In this document: positions 18,966 to 20,018 of the stretch, piece by piece
Layout: the number at the start of each line of letters is the position of its first letter
Numbering within the stretch: the stretch's first letter is position 1
Origin: a virus
Lineage: Duplodnaviria; Heunggongvirae; Uroviricota; Caudoviricetes
DNA length: 22,466 nucleotides
Virus record (IMG/VR): IMGVR_UViG_2648501110_000004
Strand: one strand, 5' to 3'
The notes under the pieces: model-generated
What the model was told of the DNA's origin: nothing
The model's database searches: none
What the model saw: the letters and a program-made list of their open reading frames with translations, nothing else
Position numbers and translations under genes: made by a program

Positions 18966-20018
18966 TTATTTCCCCACCAGTTCACTTACCTCTTTCACCG
19001 TCTGATTAAACCGCTCTGACTCAAGTTCAACACCTAACGCCCGACGCCCCAGCGCCATTGCTGCTTTTATTGTGGAACCGGATCCCATAAAGAAATCAGC
19101 AACCAGATCACCAGGGCGACTACTGGCATTGATTATTTGCCGGAGCATATCCGCCGGTTTCTCGCACGGATGTTTACCCGGGTAGAACTGAACGGGTTTA
19201 TGCGTCCAGACATCGGTATAAGGCACGGAGACTGATACGGAGAAATAGCGCCGGAGAGATTTAAACTCATCCAGCAATTCAGAATATTTGCGATTCAGTG
19301 AATCATAAGATGCCACCAGCTGGTGGTGTGGTTGTTCCAGTTGTTGTTCCTGAAACTTCTCTGCCGCTATACGGGAAAACAGTGCCTGTAACTTCCGATA
19401 GTCAGCCTCATTCGGCAACTGCCACTGACTGGCACCAAACCAGTGGGAAACCATATTTTTCTTACCTGTGGCTTCGGCAATTTGTTTTGCCGTTATACCC
19501 AGTTCGGCACGAGCATCCCTGAAATACGATATCAGCGGTGCCATTATGTGCTGTTTGAGTTCCCTTTCTTTTGCTGCATAGCCGTCACTTTTGCCGCGAT
19601 ATGGCCCCTGGTAATGTTCAGCAAACAGAACGCGCTCTGTGGCAGGAAAATATGCGCGCAGACTTTCTTTATTACACCCATTCCAACGTCCGGACGGCTT
19701 CGCCCAGATGATATGGTTAAGCACGTTGAAACGTTCACGCATCATGATCTCAATATCAGATGCCAGGCGATGCCCACAGAACAGATAAAGGCTTCCGGCA
19801 GGTTTTAACACCCGCCAGAACTGGGCCAGACAGTGGTCCAGCCACTTAAGGTAATCTTCGTCCCCTTTCCACTGATTGTCCCAACCGTTGGGTTTCACCT
19901 TGAAGTACGGCGGATCGGTAACAATCAGGTCAATGGAATCATCAGGCAGGGACTGAATAAAATGCAGGCAATCAGCGTTGATTAAATCAACACTGTTTAT
20001 TTTTACAGTATTTTTCAT
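18966..20018 (-). CDS. DNA amino-methyltransferase (N6-adenine or N4-cytosine), beta class (350 aa)
   Basis: Motif IV DPPY (...DLIVTDPPYF...) lies near the N-terminus and motif I FxGxG (DFFMGSGSTIKAA) near the C-terminus; this IV-then-I order defines the beta class. The central region is plausibly the target-recognition domain. Confidence 0.85.
   Translation of the reverse strand: MKNTVKINSVDLINADCLHFIQSLPDDSIDLIVTDPPYFKVKPNGWDNQWKGDEDYLKWLDHCLAQFWRVLKPAGSLYLFCGHRLASDIEIMMRERFNVLNHIIWAKPSGRWNGCNKESLRAYFPATERVLFAEHYQGPYRGKSDGYAAKERELKQHIMAPLISYFRDARAELGITAKQIAEATGKKNMVSHWFGASQWQLPNEADYRKLQALFSRIAAEKFQEQQLEQPHHQLVASYDSLNRKYSELLDEFKSLRRYFSVSVSVPYTDVWTHKPVQFYPGKHPCEKPADMLRQIINASSRPGDLVADFFMGSGSTIKAAMALGRRALGVELESERFNQTVKEVSELVGK

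What the first reader, a model, noticed from the sequence alone, without database searches (positions are those of the whole stretch)
18966..20018. Beta-class DNA amino-methyltransferase with no recognisable partner nuclease
DPPY near the N-terminus and FxGxG (FFMGSGST) near the C-terminus define a beta-class N6-adenine or N4-cytosine methyltransferase of 350 aa. No canonical restriction endonuclease is evident nearby, so it is either an orphan (anti-restriction or epigenetic) or paired with an unrecognised partner such as the 205-aa protein two genes upstream. Its upstream region has no clear Shine-Dalgarno and contains a 7-bp hairpin (CTGCTTT/AAAGCAG at about 20050-20069), suggesting regulated translation.
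Basis: partly seen in the sequence, partly recalled or inferred. Interest (0 to 1): 0.5.

Follow-up and report, generated by a model that had tools for sequence, protein, structure and literature searches.

The report
Prophage M.EcoGII-type adenine methylase cassette
The gene is an ordinary member of a well-known family of prophage DNA methylases that mark adenines in any sequence, but it sits behind a 135-base, strongly conserved, folded leader that has not been described and probably limits its expression.

Summary
The ORF at 18966-20018 (minus strand, 350 aa) is real. It is a beta-class N6-adenine DNA methyltransferase: DPPY at residues 35-38, FFMGSGST at 309-316, Pfam N6_N4_Mtase E 1.3e-42. 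It is not an unknown orphan. It is 81-82% identical over its full length to M.EcoGII, the characterised non-specific adenine methylase, and 98-99% identical in DNA to genes of phages SfV, cdtI, mEp460 and Ayreon. It occurs in 1251 of 5426 complete E. coli genomes.

It lies in a lambdoid prophage between antiterminator Q and the lysis genes, downstream of terminators. This fits late, lytic-only expression and an anti-restriction role; both are inferred.

The proposed 205-aa partner is rejected. It is a rare WYL-domain gene, absent from all 80 related loci.

Two things do travel with the methylase. One is a 67-aa winged-helix gene, frequent but dispensable. The other is a 135-nt leader that always abuts the start codon. 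The leader is more conserved than the coding sequence, has no Shine-Dalgarno, shows compensatory base changes in three hairpins and has no Rfam match. An alternative pairing would bury the start region.

The enzyme is ordinary; the leader is a modestly interesting candidate regulatory RNA.

The parts
18966..20018 (-). Methyltransferase gene, 350 aa. Beta-class N6-adenine DNA methyltransferase of the M.EcoGI/M.EcoGII family.
   Evidence: ORF and sequence. Pfam N6_N4_Mtase E 1.3e-42. phrog_67 E 2e-102. PADLOC MTase_II E 1.6e-152. 81% identical to M.EcoGII. 82% identical, without gaps, to the M.EcoGI/II-type allele in L143.
19905..19916 (-). Catalytic motif IV, DPPY (residues 35-38).
   Evidence: Translation. 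Aligned with the DPPY of M.EcoGII and of solved beta-class methyltransferases.
19071..19094 (-). AdoMet-binding motif I, FFMGSGST (residues 309-316).
   Evidence: Translation and sequence. Aligned with FMGSGT of solved methyltransferases.
19308..19541 (-). Central target-recognition domain, residues about 160-237. In M.EcoGII this is modelled as a four-helix bundle with a helix-turn-helix.
   Evidence: Domain limits are taken from PMC11551740. 60 of 78 residues are identical to M.EcoGII and 67 of 78 to the reconstructed ancestor Anc291.
20019..20156 (-). Conserved structured leader that abuts the methyltransferase start codon. It has no Shine-Dalgarno.
   Evidence: Per-column conservation is 0.88-0.95, against 0.71-0.92 in the CDS. 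Mean pairwise identity is 0.81, against 0.70 for the CDS and 0.46 for third codon positions. Covariance model R1 finds it once per locus, always at the ATG. No Rfam match. Fold z-score -2.97.
20111..20141 (-). Leader hairpin P1 (GGCTGGTGGGTG / CACCTGCCAGCC).
   Evidence: 95-98% of cells are paired, and 6 of 12 pairs show changes on both sides. G.U cells far outnumber A.C cells (31 vs 6 and 55 vs 7), which fits an RNA read on the methyltransferase strand.
20081..20109 (-). Leader hairpin P2 (TTCGCTCATG / CACAAGCGAA).
   Evidence: One core pair occurs as C-G, A-U, U-A and U.G; two further pairs change on both sides. The outer pairs are weak, with many C.A cells.
20043..20076 (-). Leader hairpin P3.
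   Evidence: 87-93% of cells are paired. The basal G-C pair becomes A-U or G.U, and Morganellaceae carry a different apical stem.
20020..20031 (-). CGCTTACTGATC, just 5' of the ATG. It can pair with GGTCACAAGCG (20083-20093), the 3' strand of P2. This is the proposed sequestering helix.
   Evidence: The pairing is part of the minimum-free-energy fold. 89% of cells are paired, against 21-41% when the partner is slid. This state is more stable than the P2 state in 34 of 48 leaders, by 1.8 kcal/mol on average. Its function is inferred.
20162..20179 (-). Hairpin across the stop codon of the small gene, followed by TTTCC. It resembles a weak terminator.
   Evidence: Fold energy -11.9 kcal/mol, z-score -1.65. 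The stem differs between loci but stays paired (CTCC/GGAG, TGCC/GGCA, CGCT/GGCG), and some loci have a clear T-run.
20169..20372 (-). Small gene, 67 aa: a minimal winged-helix protein (phrog_331). It often accompanies the methyltransferase.
   Evidence: phrog_331 E 3e-26. Distant homologues are named 'TrmB family transcriptional regulator'. AlphaFold2 pLDDT 87 with topology H-E-H-H-E-E. Best structural matches are winged-helix domains. It lies upstream of the methyltransferase in about 58 of 80 genome loci and 109 of 120 viral contigs. In other loci it is replaced by unrelated genes.
20495..20519 (-). Intrinsic terminator T1 (AAACCCGC-CACTGA-GCGGGTTT, then TTTT), upstream of the cassette.
   Evidence: Sequence. 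Fold energy -13.8 kcal/mol, z-score -4.4.
18932..18958 (-). Intrinsic terminator T3 (GGCCACG-TTG-CGTGGCC, then TTTTTATTT), directly after the methyltransferase stop codon.
   Evidence: Terminator scan. Fold energy -12.5 kcal/mol, z-score -3.5. Annotated as a terminator in phage Ayreon. Present in 29 of 115 distinct downstream contexts.
21342..21728 (-). Context: late-gene antiterminator Q. It defines the operon in which the cassette sits.
   Evidence: Pfam Phage_antitermQ E 5.6e-47.
17610..18889 (-). Context: the lysis cassette downstream. Holin from the ATG at 18889, endolysin 18074-18550, Rz 17610-18077 with embedded Rz1.
   Evidence: Pfam Phage_holin_3_1 and Phage_lysis; PHROG endolysin.

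Best explanation
The gene encodes a solitary, prophage-borne N6-adenine DNA methyltransferase of the M.EcoGI/M.EcoGII family. Tested members of this family methylate adenine in essentially any sequence context.

The gene sits in the late operon of a lambdoid E. coli prophage, between antiterminator Q and the holin. At least one strong terminator (20495-20519) and a weak one (20162-20179) lie upstream. No sigma-70-like promoter was detected between the upstream terminator T1 and the start codon apart from one 9-of-12 match inside the small gene.

The most likely mode of action has four steps:
1. In the lysogen the gene is silent.
2. After induction, Q-modified RNA polymerase reads through the terminators.
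3. The enzyme then methylates replicating phage DNA before packaging.
4. Progeny DNA therefore resists the adenine-sensitive restriction systems of the next host.

Uncontrolled expression harms the cell, so output appears to be limited at translation as well. The start codon has no Shine-Dalgarno. It is preceded by a 135-nt leader of three hairpins, conserved across Enterobacterales. The 3' strand of hairpin P2 can instead pair with the 12 nt just before the AUG. I propose that this alternative pairing closes the start site, so that only part of the transcripts, or only nascent ones, are translated.

Shown here: family membership, gene context, linkage of the leader to the gene, and the leader's conservation and covariation.
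Taken from papers: non-specific activity, silence in lysogens and harm from unregulated expression.
Inferred: late expression, the anti-restriction role and the switch.
For: Family membership:
- Pfam N6_N4_Mtase E 1.3e-42 with DPPY near the N-terminus and FxGxG near the C-terminus.
- 81% identical to the published M.EcoGII sequence.
- 82% identical, without gaps, to an M.EcoGI/II-type allele.
- 88.6% identical to Anc291 and 70% to SUPREM, so it lies inside the clade whose tested members are non-specific (PMC5778455, PMC11551740).
- It carries the M.EcoGII-clade residues P43, N44, G45, D55, A74, H83, I89, R111, G114, C115 and Q179.

Distribution: 98-99% DNA identity to phages SfV, cdtI, mEp460 and Ayreon. 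Present in 1251 of 5426 complete E. coli genomes.

Context: Q lies upstream and holin, endolysin and Rz downstream. Terminators were found at the positions given. In the intergenic DNA upstream of the gene the scan found no promoter-like site; its only hit between terminator T1 and the ATG is a 9/12 match inside the small ORF (20287-20314).

Silence in lysogens and harm from unregulated expression.

Purifying selection on the gene: identity is 0.83 at codon positions 1 and 2, against 0.46 at position 3.

Leader.
Against: - No activity, specificity or expression data exist for this allele. Its target-recognition domain differs from that of M.EcoGII at 18 of 78 positions.
- The late promoter was not located.
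- Anti-restriction has not been shown experimentally even for M.EcoGII in the papers read. Heavy m6A would also expose the DNA to m6A-dependent type IV nucleases (PMC11037411).
- For the switch, the sequestering helix and the 5' extension of P1 are compatible with the data but rest mostly on one-sided changes or on a single clade.
- P2 and P3 contain more A.C than G.U cells, so only P1 clearly indicates the sense strand.
- Photorhabdus and Xenorhabdus relatives have a shorter leader that lacks P2 and P3.
Confidence: 0.75

Rival explanations
1. It is a sequence-specific, or only partly relaxed, adenine methyltransferase whose target differs from that of M.EcoGII because the target-recognition domain has diverged.
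For: The target-recognition domain is only 77% identical to that of M.EcoGII. Specificity in beta-class enzymes resides in this domain. The allele has not been assayed.
Against: M.EcoGII, Anc291 and SUPREM span 70-89% identity to this protein, and all are reported as non-specific (PMC5778455, PMC11551740). The alignment is colinear with no insertions or deletions. REBASE-based typing%-similar homologues non-specific.
Confidence: 0.1
2. It is one half of a two-gene system with a neighbour. The neighbour would be either the 205-aa protein acting as an unrecognised nuclease, or the 67-aa winged-helix protein acting as an obligatory subunit or controller.
For: The small winged-helix gene lies directly upstream in most loci across three bacterial families. 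Winged-helix domains can read m6A (PMC11037411). Another Stx-phage methylase needs a second subunit (PMC10810198).
Against: The 205-aa gene is absent from all 80 related loci and is 24 times rarer in E. coli. It has a WYL domain and no nuclease-like match. In about a quarter of loci the winged-helix gene is replaced by unrelated genes while the leader and methyltransferase stay intact. It also occurs without the methyltransferase in E. coli S88. M.EcoGII is active alone in vitro (PMC5778455). The Stx-phage enzyme belongs to a different family, MT-A70 with a DPPW motif.
Confidence: 0.12
3. The conserved 135 nt is not a sense-strand translational control element. It might be a DNA-level site such as a recombination linker between phage modules or a protein operator (the loop-stem GCTTTAGCGCTAAAGC is palindromic). 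It might instead be the template of an antisense RNA that represses the methylase.
For: The structure pairs equally well on the opposite strand: 94.4% against 93.8%, and 93.0% against 90.3%. P2 and P3 have more A.C than G.U cells. In S88 a module breakpoint lies inside the leader. On the antisense strand P1 is followed by CCCAUUUU.
Against: Compensatory changes in stems point to a folded single strand, not a duplex site. P1 shows a strong excess of G.U over A.C on the sense strand. No promoter-like site was found on the antisense strand near 20000-20100, and the candidate -10 region is not conserved at synonymous sites. The element keeps a fixed distance to the ATG.
Confidence: 0.2
4. The enzyme acts mainly on RNA, or acts as an epigenetic regulator in the lysogen, rather than protecting phage DNA.
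For: M.EcoGII also methylates RNA and single-stranded DNA in vitro (PMC5778455). A prophage methylase that acts on 16S rRNA and alters induction is known (PMC10810198).
Against: RNA activity of M.EcoGII is about 90 times lower than its DNA activity (Table S3 of PMC11551740). This allele has Q179, the low-RNA-activity state. Homologues leave no methylation signal in lysogens. The gene lies behind terminators in the late operon.
Confidence: 0.05

Closest known systems
M.EcoGII and M.EcoGI (E. coli O104:H4 C227-11 prophages; REBASE; Murray et al. 2018, PMC5778455)
   Same: Same family and architecture: beta-class, about 349-350 aa, DPPY, a central helix-turn-helix target-recognition domain, then FxGxG. 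Identity is 81-82% over the full length without gaps. Both are solitary prophage genes. M.EcoGI/II-type alleles (for example L143) carry the same winged-helix gene and leader upstream.
   Different: A different allele: 62-67 substitutions, 18 of them in the target-recognition domain. Activity has not been tested. The upstream leader and the small gene are not mentioned in the papers read.
Methylase genes of phages SfV (orf48), cdtI, mEp460 and Ayreon
   Same: 98-99% DNA identity and the same position between Q and the lysis genes. The same 204-bp small gene and 150-bp spacer are present in Ayreon and mEp460_4F5; the other records were not inspected.
   Different: The flanking modules differ: other Q alleles, other holins, and no 205-aa gene. 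These copies are annotated only as putative methylases.
Alpha-class non-specific adenine methylases of Haemophilus phages (Drozdz et al. 2012, cited in PMC5778455)
   Same: Phage-borne, solitary, promiscuous adenine methylation. They presumably play the same anti-restriction role.
   Different: The motif order is the reverse (FxGxG first, DPPY last), so they are an independent lineage. Not compared by sequence here.
Phage Mu com-mom (from my own knowledge, not tested here)
   Same: A harmful DNA-modification gene of a temperate phage, expressed late. A small upstream gene and an RNA structure that masks the start site control its translation.
   Different: Com is a zinc-finger protein that is required for mom translation. 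Here the small protein is a winged helix and is dispensable in many loci. The chemistry and the protein families are unrelated. This is an analogy of logic only.
Translation limited by delayed or alternative RNA folding (MS2 maturation gene, hok mRNA; from my own knowledge)
   Same: A start region that lacks, or has only a weak, ribosome-binding site can be closed by long-range pairing. A competing upstream hairpin forms first.
   Different: No sequence or structural relationship. Here the mechanism is a proposal based on covariation and predicted energies.
M.EcoPA8orf6770P with its partner PNB-2, from an Stx phage (PMC10810198)
   Same: A prophage 'DNA adenine methylase' that has a partner protein.
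   Different: It belongs to the MT-A70 family, has a DPPW motif, sits elsewhere in the prophage (gp5), targets 16S rRNA, and is active only as a holoenzyme.

Membership tests
M.EcoGI/M.EcoGII family (beta-class non-specific N6-adenine DNA methyltransferases) | Beta-class motif order: catalytic DPPY near the N-terminus, target-recognition domain in the middle, FxGxG near the C-terminus. | tested here: met
   DPPY at residues 35-38 and FFMGSGST at 309-316. The Pfam match spans 313 residues for a 221-position model, which shows a central insert.
M.EcoGI/M.EcoGII family (beta-class non-specific N6-adenine DNA methyltransferases) | Full-length colinear similarity to M.EcoGII, including the target-recognition domain. 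| tested here: met
   283 of 349 residues identical to the published sequence. 286 of 348 identical, with no gaps, to the clean M.EcoGI/II-type allele in L143. Target-recognition domain 60 of 78 identical.
M.EcoGI/M.EcoGII family (beta-class non-specific N6-adenine DNA methyltransferases) | Placement in clade I of the SUPREM phylogeny, judged from diagnostic residues. | tested here: met
   P43, N44, G45, D55, A74, H83, I89, R111, G114, C115 and Q179 match the clade-I states implied by the SUPREM point mutants. The residue at position 62 (H) matches neither state.
M.EcoGI/M.EcoGII family (beta-class non-specific N6-adenine DNA methyltransferases) | Methylation of adenine in any sequence context. 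| not testable with these tools
   Needs expression followed by SMRT or nanopore sequencing or LC-MS. It is inferred from the bracketing by tested relatives (PMC5778455, PMC11551740).
M.EcoGI/M.EcoGII family (beta-class non-specific N6-adenine DNA methyltransferases) | Prophage location and silence in the lysogen. | tested here: inconclusive
   Prophage location is met. Silence is only inferred, from the terminators and the lack of a promoter.
Type II restriction-modification system | A cognate restriction endonuclease gene next to the methylase. | tested here: not met
   The neighbours are a winged-helix protein, a WYL protein, Q, DUF968 and a holin. Neighbours vary between loci.
Controller (C-protein) regulated restriction-modification units | A small Xre-type helix-turn-helix C protein with a C-box operator upstream of its own gene. 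| tested here: not met
   The small protein is a winged helix with a weak TrmB-like signal, not an Xre-type helix-turn-helix. The conserved element lies downstream of it and behaves as a folded strand.
Dam-type (alpha-class, GATC) phage methylases | Alpha-class motif order and similarity to the Dam family. | tested here: not met
   The motif order is beta. The best NCBIfam hits (YhdJ-like PRK11524, CcrM) are far below their cut-offs: 110 bits against 292, and 67 against 830.
MT-A70 prophage rRNA methylase (M.EcoPA8orf6770P with PNB-2) | DPPW motif, MT-A70 fold, and an obligatory second subunit. | tested here: not met
   The motif is DPPY and the Pfam family is N6_N4_Mtase, not MT-A70.
Any Rfam 15 RNA family (for the leader) | A covariance-model score at or above the family's gathering threshold. 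| tested here: not met
   No hit at gathering thresholds in the window. No hit up to E = 10 within 20019-20156.
Structured cis-regulatory leader RNA (generic class) | Conservation above the neutral level, fixed position relative to the regulated gene, and helices supported by compensatory changes. | tested here: met
   Identity 0.81 against 0.46 at third codon positions. The leader always ends at the ATG. 11 and 15 pairs with changes on both sides in two sequence sets, with 0 of 500 shuffles reaching the observed values.
Structured cis-regulatory leader RNA (generic class) | A demonstrated effect on expression of the downstream gene. | not testable with these tools
   Needs reporter fusions and structure probing.

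The most novel reading that the evidence does not exclude
The 135-nt leader is a previously undescribed structured RNA that gates translation of a harmful, non-specific DNA methylase through mutually exclusive helices. In one state P2 forms and the start region is free. In the other state the start region is paired. The accompanying 67-aa winged-helix protein, the enzyme itself or a small molecule could be the input that shifts the balance. If so, the cassette is a self-contained 'timed hypermethylation' module that spreads among lambdoid phages of Enterobacterales.
Probability: 0.35. Interest if true: 0.55.

Novelty: new member of a known kind. Interest (0 to 1): 0.35.

Why it matters
M.EcoGII is widely used as a reagent for chromatin footprinting and for making DNA resistant to restriction. 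Its natural biology is much less well understood. How a prophage keeps such a harmful enzyme silent, when the enzyme is switched on, and whether it really protects virion DNA are barely documented in the papers I read.

This window shows three things. The family is very common, present in about a quarter of complete E. coli genomes. It sits in the Q-dependent late operon. It always travels with a conserved folded leader and usually with a small winged-helix gene. Together these give a concrete, testable handle on its regulation.

For the scan itself, the main value is negative. The gene is a known kind of solitary phage methylase, not part of a hidden restriction system.

Tried and rejected
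- **The 205-aa protein as partner or nuclease.** Rejected by co-occurrence and by fold: WYL domain only, with no nuclease match.
- **DUF968/HNH protein (21731-22318) as partner.** It is a standard lambdoid gene next to Q. It has no PADLOC hit and no consistent linkage to the methylase.
- **A leader peptide.**
  - The ATG at 20146 opens a 33-codon ORF in the window.
  - In most relatives it stops after 7 codons (MGGWWVL).
  - In Proteus it encodes an unrelated peptide, and it is absent in several Xenorhabdus loci.
  - Loop insertions and deletions shift the frame, and there is no Shine-Dalgarno. Rejected.
- **A promoter at TGTGAAAAT at the 5' edge of the leader.** The key -11 position alternates between A and G across loci. 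Rejected.
- **An antisense promoter in the first codons.** Best match 8 of 12 and not conserved at synonymous sites. No support.
- **A known RNA family.** None found. Weak sub-threshold hits (STnc130, isrJ, isrK) fall on terminator T1, not on the leader.
- **Zalpha-like function of the small protein.** The best Foldseek hits are Zalpha domains, but the Zalpha contact residues (Lys/Asn/Tyr in helix 3, Trp in the wing; from my own knowledge) are absent from RCQLILTQLV and the wing. I treat the match as a generic winged helix.
- **Identity with the Stx-phage rRNA methylase and PNB-2.** That is a different family.
- **Strand assignment from G.U versus A.C counts.** Decisive only for P1.
- **Literature search for the leader sequence string.** No paper found.
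- **Locating the late promoter downstream of Q.** No convincing site was found. The only minus-strand match near Q overlaps the start of the 205-aa gene.
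Full report
**1.

The minus-strand ORF at 18966-20018 encodes 350 aa. An in-frame TGA lies 6 nt upstream of the ATG, and the N-terminus MKNTVKINS matches homologues, so the start is correct.

- DPPY is at residues 35-38 and FFMGSGST at 309-316.
- Pfam N6_N4_Mtase matches residues 29-341 at E 1.3e-42.
- The 221-position model is spread over 313 residues. This shows the central insert expected for the target-recognition domain of a beta-class enzyme.
- PDB sequence relatives are beta-class enzymes such as M.RsrI, M1.MboII and CcrM. 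They match only in the two catalytic halves.
- The 25 nt before the ATG contain no Shine-Dalgarno-like 4-mer.
- The hairpin CTGCTTT/AAAGCAG is at 20051-20070.

**2. What the window is**

All genes lie on the minus strand and form the late region of a lambda-like prophage. In order:

- DUF968/HNH protein (21731-22318)
- antiterminator Q (21342-21728)
- an AT-rich 205-aa gene (20649-21266)
- a strong terminator, T1 (20495-20519)
- a 67-aa gene (20169-20372)
- the methyltransferase
- terminator T3 (18942-18958)
- holin, endolysin, Rz and Rz1
- a Rha-like fragment
- small and large terminase subunits, portal, a ClpP-capsid fusion and lambda-type tail genes

No tRNA and no Rfam family was found in the window. 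No restriction endonuclease is present.

**3. What the methyltransferase is**

- *Known relatives.*
  - The gene is 98-99% identical in DNA to genes of phages mEp460, Ayreon, cdtI and SfV (orf48).
  - It is about 85% identical to a gene in Stx2c phages.
  - It occurs in 1251 of 5426 complete E. coli genomes, with up to 8 copies per genome.
- *The M.EcoGII family.* The literature on M.EcoGII describes a 349-aa beta-class prophage enzyme that methylates adenine in any context. It is silent in the lysogen, and cells that express it without regulation grow slowly and the clones are unstable.
- *Identity to M.EcoGII.*
  - The M.EcoGII sequence printed in Table S1 of PMC11551740 (machine-read, with a few reading errors) is 81% identical to the window protein over its full length.
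  - A clean M.EcoGI/II-type allele in viral contig L143 is 97% identical to that print, and the differences include obvious reading errors.
  - The L143 allele is 82% identical to the window protein, with no gaps.
- *Identity to tested variants.* The window protein is 88.6% identical to the reconstructed ancestor Anc291 and 70% identical to SUPREM. Both are active and largely non-specific. It carries the clade-I residues, including Q179.
- *Conclusion.* Membership of the M.EcoGI/II family is secure. Non-specific activity of this allele is a strong inference, not a result.
- *Selection.* The gene is under purifying selection. Identity across 40 loci is 0.83 at codon positions 1 and 2, against 0.46 at position 3.

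**4. Partners**

I collected 80 loci from one-genome-per-species contigs. They have 61-93% protein identity and come from Enterobacteriaceae, Erwiniaceae and Morganellaceae. A leader-motif scan of viral contigs matched 120 contigs, and 119 of these carry the leader.

*The 205-aa gene.*
- It is absent from all 80 loci.
- It occurs in only 52 E. coli genomes.
- Its model has an N-terminal WYL domain like those of CapW, BrxR and DriD. Nothing in it resembles a nuclease.
- It is therefore an independent accessory gene, not a partner.

*The 67-aa gene.*
- It lies directly upstream of the methyltransferase in about 58 of 80 genome loci and in 109 of 120 viral contigs, although it is only 40-60% identical between them.
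- It is a minimal winged helix: pLDDT 87, with winged-helix domains as the best structural matches. Distant homologues are labelled as TrmB-family regulators.
- It is not obligatory. In about a quarter of genome loci unrelated genes replace it while the leader and methyltransferase remain intact.
- In E. coli S88 it occurs without the methyltransferase.

**5. The leader**

*Conservation.*
- The 135 nt before the ATG (20019-20153) are the most conserved part of the whole cassette.
- Per-column conservation is 0.88-0.95. It is 0.71-0.92 in the early coding region and 0.45-0.74 in the small gene.
- Mean pairwise identity is 0.81, against 0.70 for the coding sequence.

*Not a coding sequence.* Loop insertions and deletions shift the frame of any peptide, and compensatory stem changes rewrite it.

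*Three hairpins.*
- P1 lies at 20111-20141 and P2 at 20081-20109.

*Covariation, in two sequence sets.*

| Set | Cells paired | Paired when the partner is slid | Pairs changed on both sides | Shuffles reaching observed (of 500) |
|---|---|---|---|---|
| 51 distinct genome leaders | 93.8% | 32-39% | 11 of 32 | 0 |
| 52 distinct leaders from viral contigs | 90.3% | 33-44% | 15 of 32 | 0 |

The two sets may share phage lineages.

*Examples of compensatory change.*
- P1 reads GGCTGG..CCAGCC in Escherichia, GACTGT..ACAGTC in Proteus and GACAGT..GCTGTC in another Proteus.
- One P2 pair occurs as C-G, A-U, U-A and U.G.

*Linkage to the gene.*
- A covariance model built from the leader finds it once per locus, always ending at the methyltransferase start, and nowhere else in 1.57 Mb.
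- The apparent exceptions are a deletion pseudogene (L091) and a chance match to the search pattern (L187).

*No prior description found.* There is no Rfam 15 match, even at E = 10. A full-text search for the sequence string returned nothing. The M.EcoGII paper does not mention upstream elements.

**6. How the leader may work (inferred)**

- *The closed state.*
  - The 3' strand of P2 (GGTCACAAGCG, 20083-20093) is complementary to CGCTTACTGATC (20020-20031), which ends 2 nt before the AUG.
  - This helix, wrapped around P3, is part of the minimum-free-energy fold.
  - In that fold a 5' extension of P1 (AUGGGC with GCUCAU) is also present.
- *Support for the closed state.*
  - The sequestering helix is paired in 89% of cells. 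In Morganellaceae both strands differ yet still pair.
  - The P1 extension is paired in 97% of cells, but only through one-sided changes.
- *A competing helix.* UGGGC with GCCCA would close a three-way junction around P1 and P2. It is paired in 100% of cells and shows one compensatory change.
- *Energetics.* The P2 state and the sequestered state differ by about 2 kcal/mol on average. The sequestered state is more stable in 34 of 48 leaders.
- *Reading.* This is the layout of a switch or of delayed folding. P2 can form first and leave the start region free on nascent RNA. The equilibrium fold then closes it.
- *Consequence.* Together with the missing Shine-Dalgarno, this would keep the yield of a harmful enzyme low.

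Caveats:
- The overall pairing is equally good on the opposite strand.
- Only P1 shows the G.U excess expected of a sense-strand RNA: 31 against 6 cells, and 55 against 7.
- Photorhabdus and Xenorhabdus have a shorter leader with only a P1-like hairpin.

**7. Expression logic (inferred)**

- The scan found no sigma-70-like promoter between terminator T1 and the ATG, apart from one 9-of-12 match inside the small gene.
- T1 is a strong terminator (-13.8 kcal/mol, z-score -4.4).
- The hairpin across the stop codon of the small gene resembles a weak terminator in the window. It is clearer in other loci and covaries.
- The cassette thus lies behind terminators, downstream of Q and upstream of the lysis genes. 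This is the position that stx genes occupy in Stx phages (from my own knowledge).
- Q-dependent readthrough after induction is the simplest way for the gene to be expressed. It agrees with the reported silence of M.EcoGI/II homologues in lysogens.
- I could not locate the late promoter.

**8. Verdict**

The enzyme is a new allele of a known, characterised kind of solitary phage methylase, and it is widespread. The hidden-partner idea is refuted for the 205-aa gene and weakened for the winged-helix gene.

The leader is a good candidate for an undescribed cis-regulatory RNA, although its strand, its input and its effect all remain to be shown.

Noticed in passing
window 20649-21312 (minus strand): The 205-aa gene directly after Q has an N-terminal WYL domain like those of CapW, BrxR and DriD, and an unmatched C-terminal half. 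A 21-bp hairpin (21262-21312, -26.3 kcal/mol, z-score -7.3) buries its Shine-Dalgarno and ATG. The gene lies before terminator T1, so the constitutive late promoter might transcribe it in lysogens. It is found in only 52 of 5426 E. coli genomes.
   Followed up: partly
L203 (E. coli S88, NC_011742.1) 3054-5714: The same Q and 205-aa gene are followed by a 65-aa winged-helix homologue (51% identical) and the 5' half of the leader (covariance model 16.9 bits, E 0.002). Next comes an AraC-family gene and three tRNAs instead of the methylase. A module breakpoint therefore lies inside the leader.
   Followed up: partly
L091 2136-2443: A deletion joins the leader, after P3, directly to the last 66 codons of the methylase. 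This is a decayed copy that keeps the small gene and the leader.
   Followed up: partly
L048-L080 (Photorhabdus and Xenorhabdus), about 100 nt before the methylase start: These loci have a shorter leader with a covarying P1-like hairpin, GTGAAA at the 5' edge and CCAGAGAG about 20 nt before the start. P2 and P3 are absent. In several loci the annotated start looks displaced (ATGGAATAG).
   Followed up: partly
window 20391-20570: Sub-threshold Rfam hits (STnc130 on the plus strand at 30 bits against a threshold of 55; isrJ and isrK on the minus strand) fall on terminator T1 and the 250-nt non-coding stretch 20397-20648. They are probably terminator look-alikes.
   Followed up: no
window 10487-12706 (minus strand): A single 739-aa ORF joins a ClpP-type prohead protease domain to a major capsid protein domain.
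   Followed up: no
window 16773-17609 (minus strand): A 127-aa ORF with an ORF11CD3 / Rha-like antirepressor C-terminal domain sits between Rz and the small terminase subunit. About 450 nt without a convincing gene follow it.
   Followed up: no
window 17672-17857 (minus strand): A 61-aa ORF with a lipoprotein signal (…LVVSAC…) is embedded out of frame in Rz. This is the expected Rz1 spanin.
   Followed up: no
window 18932-18958: A strong terminator lies between the methylase stop codon and the holin start, inside the late operon. An equivalent terminator is found in only 29 of 115 distinct downstream contexts.
   Followed up: partly
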